Source of the DNA: a virus
Lineage: Duplodnaviria > Caudoviricetes
Virus record (IMG/VR): IMGVR_UViG_3300027766_000001
Strand: one strand, 5' to 3'
Length of the DNA: 64,000 nt
In this document: one piece after another, positions 2,097-59,989 of the stretch
Layout: each line of letters opens with the position of its first letter
How positions within the stretch are numbered: the first letter of the stretch is position 1
Notes under the pieces: generated by a model
The model's database searches: none
Seen by the model: only the letters and a program-made list of their open reading frames with translations
What the model was told of the DNA's origin: nothing
Program-made: the position numbers and the translations under genes

Positions 2097-4586
2097 ATGC
2101 GTATCAAATACATTGAACTATACAATTACCAGCGCTTGAAGTCGAAAGGACTCAACCGCATCAAGATGACCTTTGACGAGATCATTCAGGTGATCATCGG
2201 GCCAAACGGCTACGGTAAGTCCAGTTTGATGCGTGAGCTGTCACCGCTTCCACCGGATAACAGTGATTACATCAAAGGCGGCACCAAGCACGTAATCCTG
2301 GAACACAAAGGCCAGACCTACGAGATGTTGTCCTTAGCCGGCTCACCAAGTCGTCACTCGTTTAAGTGTGGCGATGTGGAGCTGAATGCGTCCAAGAACC
2401 TCAGCGCACAGAAAGAGCTGTGTGAAATGCATTTCGGGTATACCAACGAAATCCATGAACTGCTGCTGGGCACCGTGAACGGGATCTCCTTTACCACCAT
2501 GTCACCGGCCAAACGTCGTGAGTGGCTGATGGCGTTGTATCCGAATGACCTGACGTATGTCACCTCGTTGCATGACCGCTTTAAAACCATGCTACGTGAC
2601 GCTAAGGGCGGGATTCGTACCAGCTCAACCCATTTGTCGGGTTTGTACGATCAACGCGGTGCAGGTACCTCTGTGGACGAAATGCAGCAGCGTATCGATA
2701 CCTTACAGTTGCGTCGTGACAAGATCGCTCGTTTGGTGTCTGAGCAAATCTCTACCGAGAATCACCAGGGGAATATCGACCGGACCTTTGTGGATCTCAA
2801 GACGCTGGTCAACCAACACCGTAACCCGATTGCATTGTCTCGTGATTACCGCGATCATGAACACATCGTGGATCTGATTAACCAAGCTCAGGCTGATTTA
2901 CAGCAATTGGAGTATGCGCATCAAACGCACACCAAAGAGCTCAGCGAGTTAGCCAACAACGAGGTGTTCAAACAAGCCGCTACAGCAGAAGACAAAGAAC
3001 GTCTTGAGCAACAGCAGGCCGAGCTCAATGCACAGATTGAAGCGGATCAGAATCGTTGGCAGCAGGCGAATGAGTATTATCAGGCAGAACCACTGTGGGG
3101 TAAGTTGACGGGGCTGGAAGAGTTTACCCAGCGCAACCTCGTGAACATCGCCAGTGAGTTACTGTCTGTGCTTGCCAGCATGACCCCGATGGATAACCGT
3201 GAAGTGACTATCCGTCAGTATGATTCCGTGATGAAGCTCAAGTATGAACTGGGTCCACAGATTGAACGTCAAACCGATATCGTGACTCGCATTCAGCATA
3301 AGCTTAAACATCTCGATTCAGCGGACCGTACAGAATGTCCTGAGTGTCATCATCGTTGGTTACCGGGTGTCAATCAGCAACAGATTGAAGACCTGCGTCA
3401 ACGGGGGATTACTGAGCAAGCCACCCTGGATTCATTGACTGAACGCTTTAACAAGTGTGAGCAGTATGTTAACACCTACAGCATCTGGTATACCGGTGCC
3501 GTAAACTACTCACGCTTTATGGCGGGTCACTCAGCCTTGGAGTCACTCAATGAGTGGTTGCTGGAAATGGATGTGTTGTACACCAAAGGCAAAGAGCTGG
3601 CAGGTACCTTACCGGGTATGCTGGAAGTATTACCGGTGCATCATCGCTTAACGGCAAACAAGGCTGCCTTAGAGCAGCTGGCAGGTCGTTTAAAGATGTT
3701 TGACTCAGATGCAGTGGAATGGCATAAACGTCGTTACCAGGAGCATGAGGATGCGTTGAGTGCGGTGATCAACAAGCAGCGCGGCGTGAAGCTTGACTTG
3801 GCACAGTTACGTCAAGATCTGGCTACCGCTGAAGATGCTGAGCGTATGGTGGCGAAGATTGCGGGACACAAGGGGTATATTCGTCAGCAGGCGTCTGCGT
3901 TGGCGGAGCAAACCTTGACTCGCATTGCCAACACCGAACATCAGGTCTTAGGCGAAGAGCAGCGTGCGTTGACCACCCAGCTTTATAACGTGCGTTCACT
4001 GGAAGGTACGATCACCAGTACTGAGCAACACGTTGAGATGATGAAGCAGCAAGAAGAAGTCTTGAAGCTGTTAGTGAAAGCTACATCGCCAATCGAAGGT
4101 GTGGTGGCCGAACAGCTCTCTGAATTCATTGCCTGTTTTATTGGTAACATCAACGTGGTGATTGATGAGCTGTGGGATGAAGTCCTGCAGATTCGTCCGT
4201 GCAGTATCGAAGAAGGCAGTCTCTCCTTTAAGTTCCCGCTGCTCTCCGGCGAGTACCAGTGTGAGACCAATGACATCTCTGAATCCTCCACCGGTGAGTC
4301 ACAAGTCATCAACTGGGTATTCCGTTTGATCCTGATGGAATACTTAGGGTTCGAAGACTATCCGTTGTACGGGGATGAAATTGGGGCGAACTTCGATGAA
4401 CGTCACCGTCCGAAACTCATGGAGTTCTTGAAGAAGTGTGCATCGTCAGGCAAGTACAGTCAGATCTTCTTGATCTCGCACTACATTGCCCAACACGGCG
4501 TACTGACCCATGCACAAGTGTGCGCGTTGTCAACCGACGGGGTAGCCTTACCTGAACGTTACAATGAACACGTTGAAATATCGTAA
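2097..4586 (+). CDS. sbcC: SbcC/Rad50-like SMC-family ATPase
   Basis: Walker A GPNGYGKS, long coiled coils, central zinc hook CPECHH, signature SSTGE, Walker B LYGDE, H-loop LISH. Confidence 0.9.
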   Translation: MRIKYIELYNYQRLKSKGLNRIKMTFDEIIQVIIGPNGYGKSSLMRELSPLPPDNSDYIKGGTKHVILEHKGQTYEMLSLAGSPSRHSFKCGDVELNASKNLSAQKELCEMHFGYTNEIHELLLGTVNGISFTTMSPAKRREWLMALYPNDLTYVTSLHDRFKTMLRDAKGGIRTSSTHLSGLYDQRGAGTSVDEMQQRIDTLQLRRDKIARLVSEQISTENHQGNIDRTFVDLKTLVNQHRNPIALSRDYRDHEHIVDLINQAQADLQQLEYAHQTHTKELSELANNEVFKQAATAEDKERLEQQQAELNAQIEADQNRWQQANEYYQAEPLWGKLTGLEEFTQRNLVNIASELLSVLASMTPMDNREVTIRQYDSVMKLKYELGPQIERQTDIVTRIQHKLKHLDSADRTECPECHHRWLPGVNQQQIEDLRQRGITEQATLDSLTERFNKCEQYVNTYSIWYTGAVNYSRFMAGHSALESLNEWLLEMDVLYTKGKELAGTLPGMLEVLPVHHRLTANKAALEQLAGRLKMFDSDAVEWHKRRYQEHEDALSAVINKQRGVKLDLAQLRQDLATAEDAERMVAKIAGHKGYIRQQASALAEQTLTRIANTEHQVLGEEQRALTTQLYNVRSLEGTITSTEQHVEMMKQQEEVLKLLVKATSPIEGVVAEQLSEFIACFIGNINVVIDELWDEVLQIRPCSIEEGSLSFKFPLLSGEYQCETNDISESSTGESQVINWVFRLILMEYLGFEDYPLYGDEIGANFDERHRPKLMEFLKKCASSGKYSQIFLISHYIAQHGVLTHAQVCALSTDGVALPERYNEHVEIS

Positions 4587-27080: not shown

Positions 27081-28229
27081 ATGGATAATAAATATCTAAC
27101 CCTGGGTCACCATATCCTGAAAGAAGGCCGTTCCCGTGGCGATCGGACAGGTACTGGTACCAAAAGCATCCGTAGTGCTAAGTTGGTGTTTGACATGCGT
27201 GAGGGATTCCCCTTACCTACAACTAAAAAAGTGAATTTAGAGTCGGTGTTTCGCGAACTGAAATGGATTCTGCTGGGTCGCACCGATGTGCAGTATTTGG
27301 ATCAGTTTAAATGTGGGTTCATCTGGCGAGCCTGGTCACTAACCGAGCCGGTGTTGCGCAAGCAACACCTCACTGGTTACGATCGGGTGTGTTGGCTGCG
27401 TGAAAACAAACCCGAAGCCTATGCAGAATGGGTTGAAGGTAAGTACGAACAAAAAGCAGAAGAGGCCGGTAAAGCCTTCATGCTCCAGCACCATGTCCCC
27501 ACTGAAGTTGATGTTGTTGCAATACCCGAAGGCGAAACCAATGCGCCGTACGGTCCGAGAATGCGTGCCTGGAAAGGCCGCGATGGCACCACGGTTGATC
27601 AGGTGGAATACACCTTGGATCTCCTGCGTCATAATCCGGAAAGCCGTCGCATTATGATTAGCCTCTGGGATCCGGTAGACATGCCAGATGAATCAATCTC
27701 TCCGCAAGATAACGTGCGCAATGGCAAACCTTGCCTGACGCCGTGTCACTGGGCGATTGAGTTCTACACCGATGAACTGACCCATGTTGAACGTGTTCAG
27801 TGGCTGGTTGACAACAACCCGCATATCTGGGACAAGTGGGTCAAAGAAAACGGTGATGAGCATCAGCTGGATGCTTTCCTGGATCAGCACGACGTACCAA
27901 CCCGTTATCTCGATCTGAAGTGGCACCAACGTTCTGTGGACTTCTGTGTGGGTCTTCCGTACAACATCGCCAGCTACGGTCTCATGCTGCTGATGTACGC
28001 GAAAACCCTGAACATGATTCCACGTGAGTTGGAGTTCGATGGGACGAACGTACACGTGTACAAAAATCACGTCGAAGGTCTGGTTCAGCAATTCTCTCGC
28101 ACGCCGCGTGAACTTCCAATTGTGGAGATCGTCAACAAACACGATCGCCTGGAAGATTACGAGTGGGAAGACATTGCCGTGGCCGCGTACGATCCGCACC
28201 CGTTCATCAAGTTCGATGTAGCTGTTTAA
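27081..28229 (+). CDS. thyA: Thymidylate synthase with two insertions
   Basis: DRTGTGT, FPLPTTKK, SRR, catalytic PCH, QRSVDFCVGLPYNIASY (Asn = dUMP specificity), HVYKNH, IKFDVAV terminus. Confidence 0.95.
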   Translation: MDNKYLTLGHHILKEGRSRGDRTGTGTKSIRSAKLVFDMREGFPLPTTKKVNLESVFRELKWILLGRTDVQYLDQFKCGFIWRAWSLTEPVLRKQHLTGYDRVCWLRENKPEAYAEWVEGKYEQKAEEAGKAFMLQHHVPTEVDVVAIPEGETNAPYGPRMRAWKGRDGTTVDQVEYTLDLLRHNPESRRIMISLWDPVDMPDESISPQDNVRNGKPCLTPCHWAIEFYTDELTHVERVQWLVDNNPHIWDKWVKENGDEHQLDAFLDQHDVPTRYLDLKWHQRSVDFCVGLPYNIASYGLMLLMYAKTLNMIPRELEFDGTNVHVYKNHVEGLVQQFSRTPRELPIVEIVNKHDRLEDYEWEDIAVAAYDPHPFIKFDVAV

Positions 28230-36513: not shown

Positions 36514-38872
<2,359 letters not shown>

Positions 38873-51608: not shown

Positions 51609-51636
51609 TGAGGAACTTCGGTTCCTCTTTTTTTTT
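51609..51636 (+). terminator. Intrinsic terminator with UUCG loop
   Basis: GAGGAAC-TTCG-GTTCCTC then T tract. Confidence 0.85.
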
Positions 51637-51652
51637 GTTTAAGGAATCCACT

Positions 51653-52315
51653 ATGACTGACGTAACCAAGCCTGTGTTTAAACAGGAGCTCTTCACCCAG
51701 GTGTTCATCAACGGCGCACGCTTTGACCCAATCAGCGTTGGTCTGAGCGACCAAACCCAGCGCGATGATAATCCTGAGCAGCTGGATTTCGTTAAAGCGG
51801 TTGAGCTGCTGAGAAGTGCCTACGTGCATCGTCACAATCCTGTGCGTGACAAACTGATCATCATGGGTATGCTCGACACCATCATGGCTGAGCTGCCGAC
51901 GGGTAACTTGAACTATAACCGCAGTATCTCACTGGGTGATGTGGTCCTGCATTACGGTGTGGCGCTGCGTAAAGCCCCGCCGGCCAATGTTATACCAGAT
52001 GAAGTTAAACCGGAACGTAAGCGCGGTGAAATCCCAGGCATCATTCCAGCTAATGAGTTTGGTGAAACGCTTACCGACGACATCCCCTGGGATCCGGTTC
52101 AGGCCGAACACGAAGCTGTACTCCAGCAACAATACGAAAGAGAGGAAAAAGAAATGTCAGGTAACACCCCTGCCGCTGATGGCGATTTTAACATCGATGC
52201 ACTGAGCGCACTGGATCTGGAAGCAGCTGAGAAAGTTGCCGAAGAGAAACAAGCCGGTGGTGGCGAAGTCGTTGAAGCCTCTAACGAGTGCGATGGCGGC
52301 GGTTGCAAGATCTAA
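51653..52315 (+). CDS. Hypothetical protein ending in an NrdA-type redox tail (ECDGGGCKI)
   Basis: AAGGA SD before ATG 51653; acidic flexible C-terminus with CX4C-KI-COOH. Confidence 0.75.
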   Translation: MTDVTKPVFKQELFTQVFINGARFDPISVGLSDQTQRDDNPEQLDFVKAVELLRSAYVHRHNPVRDKLIIMGMLDTIMAELPTGNLNYNRSISLGDVVLHYGVALRKAPPANVIPDEVKPERKRGEIPGIIPANEFGETLTDDIPWDPVQAEHEAVLQQQYEREEKEMSGNTPAADGDFNIDALSALDLEAAEKVAEEKQAGGGEVVEASNECDGGGCKI

Positions 52316-52319
52316 ACAT

Positions 52320-52351
52320 ACGGGCCAGACTTCGGTCTGGCTCTTATGCCG
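52320..52351 (+). terminator. Intrinsic terminator with UUCG loop and TTATGCCG tail
   Basis: GGGCCAGAC-TTCG-GTCTGGCTC-TTATGCCG. Confidence 0.8.
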
Positions 52352-52409: not shown

Positions 52410-54317
52410 ATGGCCGAGAATAGCACTGTATTGCAAATTCAGGATATCGCTGATGCTGGCGGTAAAGTTGTGTTTCTGGACAGCGCAGGTGAGCTGAAAA
52501 GCTTTGCCTTGTCCCAGATCACGGATCTTCTGAAAAACAATCTGTCTGCTGATTCGTTAGCGTCCAGCGATGCCCTGAGTATGATTGGCCAGGTCGAGTC
52601 CTTTGCGGCTCTGCGTCAATTGAAGCCCAAGAAAGACGGTATGCGTGTTTCTCTTAAAGGGTGGAACGCCGGCTCTACCGAAGGTGGTGGAGAGTTCGTT
52701 GGTTACCTTAGTAAAGGGACTGACGATGGCGGGATGGTGGCAGCTGGGAATGGTTTCCGGTGGGTCCGTGCTTGTCACGATGTTAACACTATCAACGTCA
52801 CGCATTTTGGGGCGAAGATGGATGGGGTGACTGATACGGCAGCCGCGGCTATTGCCATGTACAACTGGAGTGTGAAGAACATGCAAGGCGTGGGTATTCG
52901 TTACCCAGCTGGGGTATGCTTCATTTCTCAGATTAAATTCCCTAATGAACTCAACCTGTTTAAACTCACTGGCGGTCAGACTAACTTCGGTTATCTGAGC
53001 AGCACCATTGTTTACACCGACACCAATAGCAACTTCATCGTTGATATTGCGGCCCGTAAAGTGGAGCTGGCTAACTTTATCTTCCGGGGCAAGGCAACTG
53101 AAGCAACTCCGGATACTAAAGGCGTCTACAACAACAGCATCATCGGCGGTCAGTTCTTTAACATGACCTCTGTGCGTTTTGAACAGATCGGCGGCACCTG
53201 CGTTCAACTGGTCGATACTCTGGATACCAAATTGCATCAGTGGTATGCCTCTGAGTGTCGCGGTGACGTGATTGCGTCTAAATGGTCTGGTCGTGCTGCG
53301 GGTGTGTGGGATCACTCCACTGCCATCGACATGAGCAACTTCAACGTACAGAAATGTGTGGGTGGTAAAGTCTTTAACTTGCCACGTTGCACACAGTCCT
53401 TTATTACCAACGGGTGGATCGAGCACACCGAATTCCCTGGCGATATCTCCAACGGACAATGGATCATTAACGGTTTCAACATGGAAGATTGTAAGAACCC
53501 ACTCAAGGCAACTTACTCTCGTCTGATTGAAAATCAAACGGGCCTGCAGTCAGGCTCTTCTATTGATTACTCCGATGATCCAAATGTCGTTGAATGGCTG
53601 AGCCAGTGGGAGCGTGGTCGAATCGATATCAGCAACCACGGTATTTATATCAACGGTACGCTGGAACCTGGCTCAATGTTGTCTCGCAACAAAATGGGCA
53701 ACAGCGGTGATACGCCGAAGTGGTTCCGTGTGGGTCGCTGGTTCTCGCCGGAAGAAGGTGACCAGCTGGACATCAACATGATTGGCTGCGGTAACTTCCT
53801 GTCGGAAAGCCCTAACCTGAATGACGTTGACGACTCGCGTCAGGGTGGCGGTAATACCCTGATTCGTGTACAGCTCAAGAAGAACGGTGCCATTGGCGGA
53901 ACGCTGATGCCGTGCGGTTCTTCTCCTATCCTGGCAGCGAAGCTGATTAAGGTGAGCGGTGGATCATTTGTGTTGTACGTGCAGCTGAAAGGCTATACGC
54001 GCAACGTGATCCCAATGATCACAGCAACGGGTAAGACGCGCGCTGAAGCTGGTGTGTGTTATTATTTCCGTCCGGACGTCGCAGCGGTAACTGAAGCTGA
54101 GATCGCAGCACAGGAAACTGAACAGAACAAAGTTCAGACTATCTCTGAGCAGTGGTCGATGGGTCAGAAGGCAGGCGTTGGTGCAACTAACGAAGGTCAT
54201 CTGTTGCTGAAAGGTCAGATCAAGAATGATCACCTGGCGGTACGTGTTCTGGTAAGCTCTGCAGCATGGGCGAAGTCAGAAATCCGTTACATCCAGCTGA
54301 AGAAAGACGCAGTGTAA
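52410..54317 (+). CDS. Tailspike / polysaccharide depolymerase (parallel beta-helix)
   Basis: LRQLKP...GGGEFV...DDGG...RWVR module and INVTHFGAKMDGVTD pectate-lyase-3-like start; Asn/Gly/Thr-rich repeats. Confidence 0.75.
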   Translation: MAENSTVLQIQDIADAGGKVVFLDSAGELKSFALSQITDLLKNNLSADSLASSDALSMIGQVESFAALRQLKPKKDGMRVSLKGWNAGSTEGGGEFVGYLSKGTDDGGMVAAGNGFRWVRACHDVNTINVTHFGAKMDGVTDTAAAAIAMYNWSVKNMQGVGIRYPAGVCFISQIKFPNELNLFKLTGGQTNFGYLSSTIVYTDTNSNFIVDIAARKVELANFIFRGKATEATPDTKGVYNNSIIGGQFFNMTSVRFEQIGGTCVQLVDTLDTKLHQWYASECRGDVIASKWSGRAAGVWDHSTAIDMSNFNVQKCVGGKVFNLPRCTQSFITNGWIEHTEFPGDISNGQWIINGFNMEDCKNPLKATYSRLIENQTGLQSGSSIDYSDDPNVVEWLSQWERGRIDISNHGIYINGTLEPGSMLSRNKMGNSGDTPKWFRVGRWFSPEEGDQLDINMIGCGNFLSESPNLNDVDDSRQGGGNTLIRVQLKKNGAIGGTLMPCGSSPILAAKLIKVSGGSFVLYVQLKGYTRNVIPMITATGKTRAEAGVCYYFRPDVAAVTEAEIAAQETEQNKVQTISEQWSMGQKAGVGATNEGHLLLKGQIKNDHLAVRVLVSSAAWAKSEIRYIQLKKDAV

Positions 54318-54983: not shown

Positions 54984-55943
54984 ATGATAGAGGCCATTTT
55001 ATTCGGTGGTAGCAGTAAAGTGCTGCTCCGCTATTCCGGTCCGGGTAACAAACAGCTTGTGGCTGGCGACAAACACAATGGCTGGCTTGGACTGATCGAC
55101 ACAGCGTTGATGCCAACCTTACAGCAAGTGGCTGCGAACGCCGGCTTGACAGTAGGGGCTTACGGTGGCACAACCAACACACCGCCCTTCTGGTTGAAAG
55201 CGGTGATCAATGACAAGTTTATTTTTGTCCCCAACGGTCCGTGGTCGACGACTGTCAATTGGGCACAGCTTTATAATGCAGGATTGGTATACGGGACCGA
55301 TGACACGGGCCCCGGCAAGCCGCTTAATTTAACGGGCGTCAATCAGCTGAACTACTTTGAATGGAAGGCGCCTGATGGGTCGTCGTGGTTATTCAAAGTC
55401 CGTTTACTGCAAGACAACGTTCCGGTCTCTGTGGGTGCAACTTCTGAAGTCACCACAACCACCATACAAAGCTCTGAACAGTTTACCTTGTTCAGCCATC
55501 TTTTCCGTGGGGGTCAGCCTGTCGATAACATTAAATGGGATGACTTGACCAACACTGCAGGACTTTACCCATTCCAGACGTTTGGTCAGACGGTTGCCAG
55601 TAACGGTTACATTCACACTTTTACAAGTAACGGTCAACCTGACGCGGGATACTTCTACGCCCCAACAGGTGTGTCCTTGGTTTGGTTACCTGTGCTGGAA
55701 GTGGTAAGTCCTGAGGATAACCTGATCTTTGCGTTGAGTGTCCAAAGCACACGATCGCAAGCAATACCTGTTGCGGCAACTGCAACCTCAATCAAGTATC
55801 AGGTTGCACAGGACGTAGCAGGGTTAGGCACACCCGCCCAACCGGTCTCGCCTTCGTTCTCTTCATCGACGCTGGCTGCACCTGGTGACTTTAGAGCAAC
55901 CAATGCCAACATGTATTCTGTGGCACCTACAGCGAGTAAATAA
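54984..55943 (+). CDS. Putative virion/tail-associated protein (paralogue family)
   Basis: GPGNKQLVAG...GWLG domain shared with the next two genes. Confidence 0.6.
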   Translation: MIEAILFGGSSKVLLRYSGPGNKQLVAGDKHNGWLGLIDTALMPTLQQVAANAGLTVGAYGGTTNTPPFWLKAVINDKFIFVPNGPWSTTVNWAQLYNAGLVYGTDDTGPGKPLNLTGVNQLNYFEWKAPDGSSWLFKVRLLQDNVPVSVGATSEVTTTTIQSSEQFTLFSHLFRGGQPVDNIKWDDLTNTAGLYPFQTFGQTVASNGYIHTFTSNGQPDAGYFYAPTGVSLVWLPVLEVVSPEDNLIFALSVQSTRSQAIPVAATATSIKYQVAQDVAGLGTPAQPVSPSFSSSTLAAPGDFRATNANMYSVAPTASK

Positions 55944-55945
55944 TC

Positions 55946-56773
55946 ATGTTCATTAATCTGGCTTGGACCAATGCCAACATTGGCTCCGTTACCACGAATA
56001 TCTACCGTGGCACCGCAGAGCTCGATCGTAAGAATCTCGGTACTCCGCTGGCAACGTTAACCAACGGTGAAACCACCTATAAAGACAGTAACGTTACCCT
56101 GGGCACAACTTACTATTACGTGATTGAGTTTGTCTCAGGTGGTACCAAGGTCACCACCCGTAACTTCCCACTGGTAGCGCAATACGTACGTGGCCACGGC
56201 AACCCTACTATCGTCTTAGGGAGCGATGCGTACGGCTTCATTGACTACGTGTCACTGGGTCGCATCACTTCGCTGTTAACCCAACTGGGAATGCCAACCA
56301 CTGGCATTGCGGACGGTTTGGTACCACAGGGCATTAAGTTCTCCTACAATGGCAAGGTAGTAATCGCCACCCAATTCGCTGCAAGTGCTATTGCCAGTGT
56401 TAACTCGTCATTCACCCCACTGCTGAATAATGCTGACGGTGTGCAGGTGACCATTGACGGCTTTAAGTACATCGTGCGGTTACCCAAAGGCATGCCAGCA
56501 AGTTGGGACAACGCCAGTCGCCCAACCACGGCAATGGATTGGGATACTGACTTTATTAAACTGTGCCTGTGTCAGTATAACCAGCTGGTGCCAAATGACG
56601 CTGAGACATTGGGTAAGTTGAATAGCTTGTCCAAGAACTCAACAGTGATCTTCCGTGAAACCAACGGCGGATATATCTGTACACGCAACGTGTCAACCAG
56701 TGCACCCAGCTGGCCTACGGTTGGCAACAACGTAACTGGTAACGTCTTCTTATTGTTTGAACTGGTGGAATAA
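55946..56773 (+). CDS. Putative virion/tail-associated protein with N-terminal FN3-like domain
   Basis: NLAWTN...NIYRG...YKD...YYY pattern, then GHGN.TIVLG...GF domain. Confidence 0.6.
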   Translation: MFINLAWTNANIGSVTTNIYRGTAELDRKNLGTPLATLTNGETTYKDSNVTLGTTYYYVIEFVSGGTKVTTRNFPLVAQYVRGHGNPTIVLGSDAYGFIDYVSLGRITSLLTQLGMPTTGIADGLVPQGIKFSYNGKVVIATQFAASAIASVNSSFTPLLNNADGVQVTIDGFKYIVRLPKGMPASWDNASRPTTAMDWDTDFIKLCLCQYNQLVPNDAETLGKLNSLSKNSTVIFRETNGGYICTRNVSTSAPSWPTVGNNVTGNVFLLFELVE

Positions 56774-56776
56774 CCC

Positions 56777-57727
56777 ATGGCGATCACTTTAAACTGGACC
56801 AACAAAAACACGGGTATCACGAACTTCAAAGTGTACCGTGGTACCTCGCGTGGTAACCTCAGCCTGTTAACCACACTTGCCAGTACGGCATTAACCTACA
56901 GTGACACCAGTGCATCAAACAACGTACTGTACTACTACCAGATCAATGCGGTAATCGGTGCGTCGGAAGAGATCCCTGGATCAATCGTTCCTTATGCAAA
57001 CATCACCGATACCGGACCGGGTCCGCAAACGTTAGTGCGCGGCACCATGGAGTTTGGTTATTTCGGTACGTTAGCAGCGGCGGACTTTGTTGCCTCTTCC
57101 GATATGCAAGCCGCTTTCCCGGTAGGGTCAGCTTACGCAACCGCGGTCACGTTCTGGTTTAAGATGGCGTGCAACGGGAAAGTGTTGTTTATCCCTAATC
57201 AGCCAGCACGTTCTCTTTCACAGTCCACTGTTAACACGCTGAACGGCCTGTATAATGCAGGGTGTCTGTTGGGTACCGGTGAAGCGACGGTCCCACACGC
57301 AGCCATCACTGCTGGCAGCACACCGGTGATGCAAAACAAGAAAGTGACGTTCGGCGCGTATGAGTTCTACGCCCGGATGCCAAAGGCGGCACAGTCTACG
57401 GATATCAAATCGAATCTGGTCATCCCCGCCACCATCACGCCAGACATTGCGTTTTCGGAAGCGTCGTTAATGGCATCACTGAACACCACGTGGCTTGCCA
57501 CCCCTGCGAGCATTGCTGCTGGTGCCATGCCCTCACAACCGCACAGTGGTAACAGTGCATTGGTCATGGGTGGGGCGACTATGCTAACACAGCACGCAAC
57601 GGCGAGTAATGTGGTGGCCCTGCTTAATACCAACGGCACTGTGACGTCGTGTGTTTACGCCAGTCCAGCCACTTCCAGCATTACGGCGTATATTTACGGT
57701 ATCCTCGAACTCATTCCTTCGAGTTAG
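56777..57727 (+). CDS. Putative virion/tail-associated protein with N-terminal FN3-like domain
   Basis: TLNWTN...FKVYRG...YSD...YYY, then GPGPQTLVRG...GYFG. Confidence 0.6.
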   Translation: MAITLNWTNKNTGITNFKVYRGTSRGNLSLLTTLASTALTYSDTSASNNVLYYYQINAVIGASEEIPGSIVPYANITDTGPGPQTLVRGTMEFGYFGTLAAADFVASSDMQAAFPVGSAYATAVTFWFKMACNGKVLFIPNQPARSLSQSTVNTLNGLYNAGCLLGTGEATVPHAAITAGSTPVMQNKKVTFGAYEFYARMPKAAQSTDIKSNLVIPATITPDIAFSEASLMASLNTTWLATPASIAAGAMPSQPHSGNSALVMGGATMLTQHATASNVVALLNTNGTVTSCVYASPATSSITAYIYGILELIPSS

Positions 57728-58663: not shown

Positions 58664-59989
58664 ATGAGTGAAGGACGTGCTGTAAAAGAAGAGTTTCGTC
58701 AACTCGCCCGGATCGTGGAAATCGACGATGTATTACCCCACCCGAATGCCGACCGTATGGAACTGGCCATCGTCGGTGGCTGGCAGATCTGTATCAAGCT
58801 CGGTGAGTTTAAGAAAGGCGATTGGGCGTTGTATTGCGAGATCGATTCACTGGTACCGACCATCTTGCCGGAATTCAGATTCCTGGAAGAGCGTGGTCAG
58901 GATATCAAGGTGTTTAACGATCAGACTTACTGTCGCATCAAATCCATTAAGCTGCGTAAAGAGATGTCGCAAGGGTTGCTGGTTCCGATCCCTGTGGCAC
59001 TCGCCTCGGCTGGCAAGGTAGAGGGCGACGACTGCACCGAAGAACTCGGTGTGTTGAAGTACGACAAGTCCGAATCAAAGGTGACCAATCCGGTTGAGCA
59101 ACAATACAGCTGGTATCACCGCCTGGCACTGCGTATCCTGGGCCCGCAGCCTGAACCGCTGCCTTTCCCCTCCTTCCTGCGTAAGTCCGAGGAGAATCGC
59201 GTACAGAACGCCTCCTCTATGTATAAGCATGCGGTAGAGAACCGTGAAGAGTTTGAAGTGTCTGTCAAGCTCGACGGCGAATCCATGACTGTGTACAGCA
59301 TGGAGGATAACGGGCGTCTGGTCACCGGCGTGTGTTCACGTAACACCGAAATTGAACAGCGGGACATCGTCTACAGCTGGCCACGTGCGATTCGTCGCTG
59401 GATCGGTTTGCTGATGCTGCGTAACCGTCGTGCAATTCAACCACGCTGCTTCGTTAAACCAGAAGGCAAGTTTGGTCTGGCGTGGATTAAACAGCTGATT
59501 GATCTTAATCGTGAGTCGCGCTTCATTAACATGGGCACACCGAAGTTTGTGCGTGTCATCAAGGCCAGCGATGACAGCTTCCTGCGCACAGCCTTGAATT
59601 GGGCGGTGATGGAAAAGCTCAAGCTCGAGTACAAACGTCGTGGTGTAGCATACACGGTGCAAGGTGAAGTGGTCGGGCCGGGCGTTCAGGGTAACTACGA
59701 AGGTATGGACGAGAAGCAGTACTTCGTCTATCGCGTCTATGTAAATGGTCGTACACCACTGCTACCCGAAGAAGCCCGTGAAGTGTGTAAACGCATTGGC
59801 CTCAGTTATGTGCCGGTATTGGATGACAACTTCCGTTTACCGGTCGACATGAAGGGCTTACTGCGTTACGCCGAAGGTCCTCGCTTCTTTGCCAAGAACG
59901 GTCACCGTGAAGGCATCGTGGTGAAATCCAAAACCCGCGACTTCTCGCTTAAAATCATCTCCAACAAATATCTGCTGAACGAAGCATAG
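58664..59989 (+). CDS. ATP-dependent RNA ligase (DRB0094/Rnl2-like) with N-terminal OB-like domain
   Basis: HPNADRME...GGWQ...YCEIDS; motif I KLDG, SRN, QGE, YFVY, EGIVVK, LKIIS. Confidence 0.9.
   Translation: MSEGRAVKEEFRQLARIVEIDDVLPHPNADRMELAIVGGWQICIKLGEFKKGDWALYCEIDSLVPTILPEFRFLEERGQDIKVFNDQTYCRIKSIKLRKEMSQGLLVPIPVALASAGKVEGDDCTEELGVLKYDKSESKVTNPVEQQYSWYHRLALRILGPQPEPLPFPSFLRKSEENRVQNASSMYKHAVENREEFEVSVKLDGESMTVYSMEDNGRLVTGVCSRNTEIEQRDIVYSWPRAIRRWIGLLMLRNRRAIQPRCFVKPEGKFGLAWIKQLIDLNRESRFINMGTPKFVRVIKASDDSFLRTALNWAVMEKLKLEYKRRGVAYTVQGEVVGPGVQGNYEGMDEKQYFVYRVYVNGRTPLLPEEAREVCKRIGLSYVPVLDDNFRLPVDMKGLLRYAEGPRFFAKNGHREGIVVKSKTRDFSLKIISNKYLLNEA

What the first reader, a model, noticed from the sequence alone, without database searches (positions are those of the whole stretch)
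51653..52315. Stand-alone non-RNR protein carrying the exact NrdA C-terminal redox tail
Seen: a 220-aa protein between two terminators ends in an acidic flexible segment and ECDGGGCKI-stop (codons from 52289). Known: E. coli class Ia NrdA ends CESGACKI, and this CX4C pair shuttles electrons from thioredoxin/glutaredoxin to the RNR active site. Seen: the rest of the protein has no RNR catalytic motif and is far too short for an alpha subunit. Inference: the tail may re-reduce a tail-less phage RNR or the host RNR in trans, act as a Trx/Grx decoy, or supply reducing power to the N-terminal domain. This is my best candidate for an undescribed function.
Basis: partly seen in the sequence, partly recalled or inferred. 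Interest (0 to 1): 0.75.

Follow-up and report, generated by a model that had tools for sequence, protein, structure and literature searches.

The report
Phage protein copying host RNR tail
A 220-residue jumbo-phage protein joins a domain of unknown function to a small portable phage module whose last residues copy the two-cysteine tail through which the host's ribonucleotide reductase is recharged, in phages that have no reductase of their own, so it probably acts on the host's DNA-precursor supply, though this is untested.

Summary
ORF 51653-52315 (+) encodes 220 aa ending ECDGGGCKI. Its only two cysteines are C213 and C218. E. coli NrdA ends DDGCESGACKI.

The last ~50 residues are a conserved, mobile phage module (PHROG 10239, unknown function). 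I collected 87 distinct members:
- All 87 end C-x(2-4)-C-x-[I/L]; 79 are CX4C.
- 24 carry an octapeptide identical to an Enterobacterales NrdA end (CESGACKI or CEGGACKI).
- 74 are stand-alone proteins of 41-94 aa. The rest are fused to three unrelated N-terminal domains.

In this window's clade the N-domain gene and the tail gene are a conserved adjacent pair, and here they are fused. Named hosts are Erwinia, Dickeya, Yersinia and Klebsiella.

None of the 20 near-complete module-bearing phage genomes tested has an RNR alpha gene. The 11 tested further also lack beta, NrdD, Grx and Trx. So "tail-less phage RNR" and "split NrdA" are rejected. "Reducing power for the N-domain" is unsupported, because that domain has no cysteine.

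The best reading is a mimic of the host NrdA tail that engages host Trx/Grx and/or the NrdA active site. Whether it helps or hinders is unknown. No co-fold could be run, and the phiR1-37 homologue g117 is almost untranscribed in laboratory infection.

This scan has flagged the same family repeatedly on other phage DNA. I found no paper describing it.

The parts
51610..51636 (+). Intrinsic terminator of the upstream gene (7-bp stem, 4-nt loop, T9). It marks the start of the transcription unit or read-through point.
   Evidence: conserved in L002
51639..51652 (+). Ribosome-binding region (AAGGA, 8 nt before the ATG)
   Evidence: read from the sequence; the same TAAGGAA-type site precedes homologues in L014-L017
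51653..52315 (+). Whole ORF, 220 aa (P0001): a fusion of the N-domain and the NrdA-tail module
   Evidence: an 86%-identical full-length relative, P0002, exists
51653..51985 (+). N-terminal domain, residues 1-111. It has a compact beta-beta-alpha-alpha-beta-beta fold, no cysteine and an unknown function. It also exists as a separate gene in relatives.
   Evidence: AF2 pLDDT about 90. Fold matches are only to uncharacterised jumbo-phage proteins. PDB and AFDB searches gave nothing convincing. The separate genes are P0004, P0011 and L001 6004-6330.
51986..52153 (+). Acidic, poorly conserved linker, residues 112-167. It is specific to this sub-lineage.
   Evidence: pLDDT 40-65; 7 synonymous and 8 non-synonymous changes plus one in-frame indel against L002
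52154..52312 (+). NrdA-tail module, residues 168-220: acidic DFNIDAL..LD.. helix, GGGEVVEAS strand, terminal CDGGGCKI. It begins at an internal M-S-G that matches the start of stand-alone homologues. GAGG lies 8 nt upstream, so this may be an internal start.
   Evidence: PHROG 10239 at E 5.8e-9 over residues 175-220; family alignments A1, A3 and A4; 74 stand-alone homologues; purifying selection
52289..52312 (+). Terminal octapeptide C-D-G-G-G-C-K-I (C213, C218): the NrdA-like CX4C-K-I
52324..52341 (+). Conserved GC-rich hairpin after the stop codon. It has no T-run on the + strand, so it is a weak terminator or an RNA-stabilising element.

Best explanation
P0001 is a Rosetta-stone fusion of two neighbouring jumbo-phage genes. 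One encodes an orphan 110-residue domain. The other encodes a ~50-residue portable module that mimics the C-terminal redox tail of the host's class Ia ribonucleotide reductase alpha subunit (NrdA).

The module is disordered and acidic. It ends in a dithiol loop, C-[D/E]-[G/S]-G-[G/A]-C-x-I-COOH, placed exactly as in Enterobacterales NrdA.

Inferred mechanism: the tail is recognised by the same partners as the real NrdA tail. Host thioredoxin or glutaredoxin would reduce its disulfide, attacking the Cys at position -3. The dithiol would then enter the NrdA active site and reduce the C225-C462 disulfide in trans. That would give an RNR-less phage a handle on host dNTP synthesis. The N-domain is a lineage-specific partner or cargo of unknown role.

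Shown here: the motif identity, its invariance, its modularity, the Enterobacterales hosts of every named member, and the absence of any phage RNR, Trx or Grx.

Inferred only: binding, redox exchange, and whether the net effect is stimulation.
For: (1) Terminal motif. 87 of 87 members end C-x(2-4)-C-x-[I/L]. 79 are CX4C. 24 have an octapeptide identical to an Enterobacterales NrdA terminus. P0070 and P0071 share DGCESGACKI with E. coli NrdA.
(2) hhalign of the module profile against the NrdA-tail profile gives probability 92.5% and E 4.8e-7 over the last 11 columns.
(3) CX4C is a minority tail type among class I RNRs that includes E. coli (PMC9669993). Every named host is Enterobacterales: Erwinia, Dickeya, Yersinia and Klebsiella.
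(4) The Cys2-x-[I/L]-COOH geometry is shared with E. coli NrdA (CKI) and T4 NrdA (CAACKL).
(5) None of the 20 near-complete module-bearing phage genomes has RNR alpha. None of the 11 tested has beta, NrdD, Grx or Trx. The T4 positive control gave E 1.7e-136.
(6) The tail is the most constrained part of the ORF: 8 synonymous against 2 non-synonymous changes.
(7) In some lineages the gene sits among nucleotide-metabolism and replication genes. dCMP deaminase and thymidylate synthase lie 1-3 kb downstream in the Dickeya group, and thymidylate synthase about 3 kb downstream in the related L012 locus. Elsewhere the gene follows DNA polymerase A and lies near nrdD/nrdG.
(8) A free 25-residue NrdA tail peptide is a bona fide glutaredoxin-1 partner (PDB 1QFN chain B; its role is from my own knowledge of Berardi and Bushweller 1999).
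Against: - There is no direct evidence of binding or redox exchange.
- Similarity to NrdA is limited to 11 residues, so convergence on a small Gly-rich dithiol loop cannot be excluded.
- This window's copy (CDGGGCKI) is identical to NrdA at only 5 of 8 positions.
- Eight members have CX3C or CX2C spacing, and Erwinia phages carry several different variants, so there is no strict host-matching.
- The phiR1-37 homologue g117 is almost silent in RNA-seq of a laboratory infection (total gene reads 3.9, 1.5 and 1.2; PMC4848604 Table S2).
- Host NrdA already has its own tethered tail, so the benefit of an extra free tail is unclear.
- The 20 genomes fall into about 6 lineages and are not independent. 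No base rate of RNR absence in comparable phages was measured.
- At least one carrier lineage encodes a class III RNR.
- A later check recorded in the scan's notes for a sister finding gave its bold functional reading only 12/100 (e1-128314).
Confidence: 0.38

Rival explanations
1. The module is a decoy or inhibitor. It copies the NrdA tail in order to compete with it. It could titrate or trap host thioredoxin or glutaredoxin, or plug the NrdA active site. The effect would be to throttle host (or a co-infecting phage's) dNTP synthesis or thiol redox metabolism rather than support it.
For: The motif evidence is the same as for the best explanation. A free peptide competes with a tethered tail more plausibly than it outperforms it. 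In a lambdoid provirus the gene sits in the moron position directly after antiterminator Q. That position fits an accessory or exclusion function.
Against: The carrier phages have no RNR of their own. Their genomes of 250-300 kb should need host de novo dNTP synthesis, so inhibiting it looks self-defeating (inference). Thioredoxin is abundant, and the phiR1-37 homologue is barely expressed. Stoichiometric titration is therefore unlikely.
Confidence: 0.2
2. The cysteine tail has nothing to do with RNR. It is a metal-binding or disulfide-forming end, for example a Zn or Fe site bridged between subunits, or a covalent link to a virion or tail-fibre component. Its likeness to NrdA is convergence on a short Gly-rich CX4C loop.
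For: Similarity to NrdA stops after 11 residues. The spacing varies between CX2C and CX4C. In this window's clade the cassette lies directly upstream of tail-fibre or depolymerase genes. The downstream EPS depolymerase lacks the first ~125 profile positions, which are the usual anchor region.
Against: The non-cysteine positions (D/E, S/G, G, A/G, K, I) and the distance to the C-terminus also match host NrdA, and 24 members are identical over 8 residues. Most members are stand-alone 45-60-aa proteins in non-structural contexts: after lambdoid Q, next to DNA polymerase, or in nucleotide-metabolism clusters. No family member is annotated as a virion protein.
Confidence: 0.17
3. It is a decayed remnant of a phage nrdA gene, or one half of a split RNR whose catalytic part lies elsewhere in the genome.
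For: Split RNRs exist (class II NrdJa/NrdJb, mentioned in PMC9669993). Notes of this scan describe detached tails next to tail-less nrdA in some bacteria (not checked here).
Against: No RNR alpha is present in any of the 20 carrier genomes tested or in the window. The module has its own RBS. It is under purifying selection, carries a conserved non-NrdA N-terminal helix, and is fused to three unrelated domains.
Confidence: 0.03
4. It is a ribosomally made peptide precursor (RiPP). An acidic FNLD-like leader and a GG motif would be followed by a Cys-containing core that a maturase modifies.
For: There is a superficial likeness: DFNIDAL/DEFNLD resembles lanthipeptide leader boxes, GGG precedes the core, and many members have S-x-x-C (the leader comparison is from my own knowledge).
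Against: No neighbour family is conserved across lineages, and no maturase-type Pfam hit appeared among the neighbours scanned. Five members have no Ser or Thr before the cysteines. The module is fused to 110-250-aa folded domains.
Confidence: 0.02

Closest known systems
C-terminal redox tail of class Ia RNR alpha (E. coli NrdA residues ~737-761, C754/C759; tail peptide bound to glutaredoxin-1 in PDB 1QFN)
   Same: Both are disordered acidic segments ending C-[D/E]-[S/G]-G-[A/G]-C-K-I-COOH, with the second Cys at position -3. The octapeptide is identical in 24 of 87 family members. The profile match has E 4.8e-7.
   Different: The module is not attached to any RNR catalytic barrel. It is encoded by phages without RNR. 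It has its own conserved upstream elements (the DFDIxAL..LD.D helix and GGGEVVEAS) that are absent from NrdA. Similarity ends after 11 residues.
T4 NrdA tail (…ADDCAACKL)
   Same: It is a phage-encoded RNR tail with Cys-x-[I/L] at the very end. The family's rare CX2C variants (CEGCKI, CDGCKI) resemble it.
   Different: In T4 the tail is part of a full 754-aa NrdA. T4 has no stand-alone module.
Split or rearranged RNR redox components (class II NrdJa/NrdJb; glutaredoxin fused to NrdB in Facklamia ignava, PMC6187632)
   Same: They show that parts of the RNR electron relay can be detached or re-fused in nature.
   Different: Those pieces sit beside their own RNR genes and serve them. Here there is no cognate RNR in the genome, so any target must belong to the host.
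PHROG 10239 and PHROG 24014 (phage protein families of unknown function)
   Same: P0001 residues 175-220 match PHROG 10239 end to end (E 5.8e-9) and PHROG 24014 weakly. Sequence-wise, this is the family the module belongs to.
   Different: The PHROG has no annotation. P0001 adds an N-terminal domain and a linker.
Viral short-linear-motif mimicry and small phage proteins that act on host enzymes (for example T7 Gp2 and Gp1.2; my own knowledge)
   Same: These are small, acidic, non-enzymatic phage proteins that act by binding a host enzyme.
   Different: No known example copies an enzyme's own redox-active tail.

Membership tests
Class Ia RNR alpha subunit (NrdA) / split NrdA fragment | RNR catalytic barrel (Pfam PF02867, with PF00317 and the ATP-cone) in the same protein, or in a partner gene of the genome | tested here: not met
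   P0001 has no Pfam hit. tblastn finds no NrdA or NrdB in the window. PF02867 is absent from all 20 near-complete carrier genomes tested. The T4 positive control worked.
NrdA-type C-terminal redox tail (as a motif) | Two cysteines 2-4 residues apart at the extreme C-terminus, second Cys at -3, hydrophobic last residue | tested here: met
   P0001 ends CDGGGCKI. 87 of 87 relatives keep C-x(2-4)-C-x-[I/L]. The feature is shared with E. coli and T4 NrdA.
NrdA-type C-terminal redox tail (as a motif) | Flexible, acidic segment preceding the cysteines | tested here: met
   pLDDT is below 50 over residues 202-217, and the tail module has pI 4.05.
NrdA-type C-terminal redox tail (as a motif) | Reduced by thioredoxin or glutaredoxin, and able to reduce the active-site disulfide of RNR alpha | not testable with these tools
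   This needs biochemistry.
PHROG 10239 (uncharacterised phage tail-module family) | Full-length match to the 47-position profile | tested here: met
   E 5.8e-9, residues 175-220 against profile positions 3-47 of 47. An HMM built from the family recovers 74 small proteins.
RiPP precursor peptide | A conserved neighbouring maturase gene, and modifiable core residues conserved | tested here: not met
   No neighbour family is shared across lineages. No maturase domain appeared among the neighbours scanned. Ser/Thr is absent before Cys1 in 5 members.
Thioredoxin-fold redoxins (Trx, Grx, NrdH) | Thioredoxin fold with a CXXC active site | tested here: not met
   There is no Pfam hit. The N-domain has no cysteine. 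The model fold is beta-beta-alpha-alpha-beta-beta with no redoxin match.

The most novel reading that the evidence does not exclude
RNR-less phages of Enterobacterales carry a portable 'detached NrdA tail'. It docks on the host class Ia reductase and shuttles electrons from host thioredoxin or glutaredoxin into its active site in trans, or gates that step. This would be a previously unknown way for a virus to control host dNTP synthesis with a ~50-residue peptide. In this phage the peptide is tethered to a second domain that may bring a further activity or partner to the reductase.
Probability: 0.3. Interest if true: 0.85.

Novelty: new variant of a known kind. Interest (0 to 1): 0.62.

Why it matters
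Re-reduction of ribonucleotide reductase through its C-terminal cysteine pair is a textbook step that is thought to belong to the enzyme itself. A virus-encoded free copy of that tail, kept under selection in phages that depend wholly on the host enzyme, would be a new kind of host take-over factor. It would also be a natural reagent for probing how the tail reaches the active site and is recognised by thioredoxin and glutaredoxin, a step that remains poorly resolved structurally.

The fused, split and stand-alone forms found here give ready-made constructs for testing this. If the reading is wrong, the family is still a widespread and strictly conserved dithiol peptide of unknown use in large phages of plant and human enterobacterial pathogens.

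Tried and rejected
- Megablast of the gene against 50,697 phage records found no match. tblastn found only the N-domain in two Erwinia phages. tblastn with the tail alone found nothing, probably because of the low-complexity filter.
- Pfam, NCBIfam and PADLOC scans of P0001 gave nothing.
- phmmer of the tail against PDB sequences gave nothing. The family profile hit only designed TIM-barrel repeats, at insignificant per-domain scores.
- Fold searches of the N-domain model found only uncharacterised phage proteins. The best solved chain reached Z 5.5, which is within noise (PDB Foldseek, BFVD, AFDB clusters, VIA wide).
- The ESM Atlas gave no usable hit.
- The fold of the second fusion partner (P0007 type) gave no match. 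Pfam and PHROG scans of all three fusion partners gave nothing.
- The whole genome of the window is not held. Logan and ENA contigs could not be searched whole. I therefore could not tell whether the ~105-kb NrdD-bearing carrier phage also has NrdA.
- I looked for a universal conserved neighbour by all-against-all BLAST of the flanks and found none across lineages.
- Homology of the 301-aa and 250-aa neighbours of stand-alone P0010 to the P0007 or P0001 domains was tested and not found.
- Scanning representative bacterial genomes for prophage copies gave one hit on a 2.4-kb MAG contig, so host-by-host matching of tail variants could not be tested.
- Literature searches for a phage NrdA-tail mimic or an RNR-directed small phage protein found no relevant paper.

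Full report
**1. The observation**

The window's + strand carries an ORF from the ATG at 51653 to the stop at 52313-52315. An AAGGA ribosome-binding site lies 8 nt upstream. The ORF follows a strong intrinsic terminator: a hairpin at 51610-51627 followed by T9.

The 220-residue product (P0001) ends ...GGGEVVEASNECDGGGCKI, and the first Cys codon is at 52289. Cys213 and Cys218 are the only cysteines in the protein. The C-terminal half is acidic, with pI 4.05 for residues 168-220.

The hairpin after the stop codon (52324-52341) is conserved in a relative, but it has no T-run on the + strand. So "between two terminators" is only half right.

I fetched E. coli K-12 nrdA and translated it. It ends ...DDLVPSIQDDGCESGACKI. 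This copy is identical to E. coli NrdA at 5 of the last 8 positions, not all 8.

**2. What the protein is made of**

AlphaFold2, run with a 7-sequence alignment, gives a confident compact N-terminal domain. Residues 5-110 have pLDDT about 90 and the order beta-beta-alpha-alpha-beta-beta. The rest is low-confidence: a linker, two short helices, and a disordered end.

Pfam, NCBIfam and PADLOC find nothing. PHROGs matches only the last 46 residues, to PHROG 10239, a 47-position family of unknown function (E 5.8e-9).

Fold searches with the N-domain find only uncharacterised proteins of jumbo phages: Erwinia Mortimer, Special G and PhiEaH1, Cronobacter GAP32 and Klebsiella FBKp24. Nothing convincing turns up among solved structures.

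**3. The tail is a portable module**

An exhaustive phmmer search of 1.84 billion representatives gave only 14 hits. These showed that the last ~50 residues occur in three settings:
- alone, as proteins of 49-61 aa;
- fused to the P0001-type domain;
- fused to a different ~240-residue domain (the P0007 type).

A scan of viral contigs added a third fusion partner, a 296-aa protein in L019. It also added copies in complete jumbo-phage genomes and in a 42-kb lambdoid provirus, where the 47-aa gene sits directly after antiterminator Q. A profile search of 5.8 billion proteins found 74 stand-alone members of 41-94 aa.

I compared 87 distinct sequences:
- All 87 end C-x(2-4)-C-x-[I/L]-COOH.
- 79 are CX4C, 6 are CX3C and 2 are CX2C.
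- The last residue is Ile in 86.
- 24 carry an octapeptide identical to the end of an Enterobacterales NrdA, either CESGACKI or CEGGACKI.
- Two (P0070 and P0071, the latter from Erwinia phage pEa_SNUABM_39) share the ten residues DGCESGACKI with E. coli NrdA.

Upstream of the cysteines most members share GGGEVVE[A/P]S and an acidic amphipathic stretch, DDFDIxAL..LD.DA. NrdA has neither.

**4. The window's gene is a fusion of a conserved gene pair**

In Erwinia phage pEa_SNUABM_37, a 108-aa gene 68% identical to P0001 residues 4-111 is followed 36 nt later by a 61-aa tail gene, MSGKDLSSYLQEP...CVDGCKI. Two further N-domain-only genes from metagenomes (P0004 and P0011) are each followed 37-39 nt later by such a tail gene.

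The fused forms P0003, P0005 and P0006 still contain the KDLSxYxxEP start of the tail protein in their linkers. In P0001 the module begins at an internal Met-Ser-Gly (M168, ATG at 52154) with GAGG 8 nt upstream. A separate 53-aa product is therefore conceivable, but this is inference only.

I compared the window with an 86%-identical relative (L002) segment by segment:

| Segment | Synonymous | Non-synonymous | Note |
|---|---|---|---|
| Tail | 8 | 2 | differences by codon position 0/1/9 |
| N-domain | 38 | 21 | |
| Linker | 7 | 8 | plus one in-frame indel |

The tail is the most constrained part.

**5. Comparison with real NrdA tails**

The 120 best NrdA matches to the E. coli tail region all end QDD[G/D]CE[S/G]GACKI. 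The CESGACKI form is found in Escherichia, Salmonella, Erwinia, Pantoea and Klebsiella. The CEGGACKI form is found in Pectobacterium and Brenneria.

hhalign of the module profile against an NrdA-tail profile gives probability 92.5% and E 4.8e-7. It aligns only the last 11 columns. The likeness is therefore a motif-level copy, not extended homology.

According to PMC9669993, most class I RNR tails are CXXC, and CX4C is a minority type that includes E. coli. The named carriers of the module infect Erwinia, Dickeya, Yersinia and Klebsiella. The motif type thus fits the hosts.

T4 NrdA ends ...DDCAACKL, so the Cys-x-[I/L]-COOH end is a shared feature of these reductases. PDB 1QFN chain B is the free 25-residue NrdA tail peptide. 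From my own knowledge, it was solved as a mixed disulfide with glutaredoxin-1.

**6. Do the phages have a reductase that needs a tail?**

No. PF02867 (RNR alpha) is absent from pEa_SNUABM_37 and from 19 IMG/VR genomes that carry the module. These genomes are 96-100% complete by CheckV.

The first eleven also lack four other families:
- RNR beta (PF00268)
- NrdD (PF13597)
- glutaredoxin (PF00462)
- thioredoxin (PF00085)

The same search finds T4 nrdA at E 1.7e-136. The window has no NrdA or NrdB by tblastn, and its larger ORFs show no RNR domain.

There are caveats. The window's own full genome is not held. The 20 genomes fall into about six lineages. One other carrier lineage, a ~105-kb phage, encodes class III NrdD/NrdG 5 kb away.

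**7. Genomic context**

No neighbour family is shared by all lineages.
- In the Dickeya group the gene lies about 1 kb upstream of dCMP deaminase and about 3 kb upstream of thymidylate synthase. Thymidylate synthase lies at a similar distance in the related locus L012.
- In another lineage it follows DNA polymerase A.
- In the window's clade it precedes tail-fibre or depolymerase genes.

**8. Expression data for a homologue**

Yersinia phage phiR1-37 g117 (51 aa...CDGGGCKI) has its own RBS and terminator. [quoted passage not shown] It is nearly silent under those conditions (PMC4848604 Table S2). This argues against a high-copy sponge, at least in that phage.

**9. Interpretation**

The data reject three readings:
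- A split or decayed NrdA.
- A tail for a tail-less phage RNR.
- A redox supply for the N-domain. That domain has no Cys and no recognisable cofactor fold.

The data also do not fit a RiPP precursor. There is no conserved maturase, and some members lack Ser or Thr.

The best-supported reading is molecular mimicry of the host NrdA tail. The module should be seen by the proteins that see that tail, namely host thioredoxin or glutaredoxin and the NrdA active site. I favour a trans-acting electron shuttle or handle on host RNR (0.38) over a competitive decoy (0.20). The reason is that these large phages must rely on host de novo dNTP synthesis. The direction is inferred, not shown.

A function unrelated to RNR, such as a metal or disulfide end reached by convergence, keeps about 0.17. 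The similarity is short, and in this clade the cassette adjoins tail-fibre genes.

**10. Relation to earlier work**

I found no paper describing such a protein. This scan has flagged free-standing RNR-tail peptides many times on other DNA. Those notes are unchecked AI readings that agree with mine, and I did not use them as evidence. One later check of a sister finding rated its bold functional reading at only 12/100, which I took as a reason for caution.

What this window adds:
- the fused 220-aa form;
- the conserved N-domain and tail gene pair behind it;
- three independent fusion partners;
- an RNR/Trx/Grx-absence test over 20 genomes.

**11. Verdict**

This is a real, conserved feature. 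It is a new variant of a known kind: a detached, virus-borne copy of the RNR redox tail. Its function is unproven. Interest: 0.62.

Noticed in passing
window 52410-54317 (+): A 635-aa EPS depolymerase/tailspike matches PHROG 4250 at E 5e-225. The match starts only at profile position 125 of 786, so the protein seems to lack the usual N-terminal anchor region. It directly follows the fusion gene.
   Followed up: partly
window 52154 (internal ATG, M168 of P0001): The internal Met-Ser-Gly matches the start of the stand-alone tail proteins (MSGKDLS...), and GAGG lies 8 nt upstream. A separate 53-aa tail product might be made from the same mRNA.
   Followed up: partly
window 54984-57727 (+): Three consecutive paralogous genes (319, 275 and 316 aa) all match PHROG 1062/3589 'virion structural protein'. 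This looks like a tandem-duplicated structural or fibre family.
   Followed up: no
window 27081-28229 (+): A 382-aa thymidylate synthase matches the Pfam model in two stretches, which suggests an insertion within the enzyme. The window also carries an NAD-dependent DNA ligase (36890-38872), an RNA ligase with a PHA02142 OB domain (58664-59989) and an SMC-like protein (2097-4586).
   Followed up: no
L020 9180-10761 (42-kb lambdoid provirus, IMG/VR): The 47-aa tail gene (...CESGACEI) sits in the moron position right after antiterminator Q and before a TerB-like gene and the lysis genes. Near-identical copies are annotated in Klebsiella variicola and K. quasipneumoniae chromosomes (P0052, P0053).
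   Followed up: partly
L025-L027 (~105-kb phage contigs): A stand-alone tail with the exact E. coli ending CESGACKI (P0069) lies just after DNA polymerase A and 5 kb from class III nrdD/nrdG. I could not determine whether this phage also has class Ia nrdA.
   Followed up: no
L005 10204-10956: An HNH homing-endonuclease-like gene (PHROG 374, E 2e-54) is inserted immediately after the stand-alone tail gene P0010 in ~213-kb phage contigs.
   Followed up: no
L023 (phiR1-37 g116-g118): g117, the tail homologue, is almost untranscribed, while its neighbour g118 is among the most highly expressed genes (total gene reads about 34,000) in PMC4848604 Table S2.
   Followed up: partly
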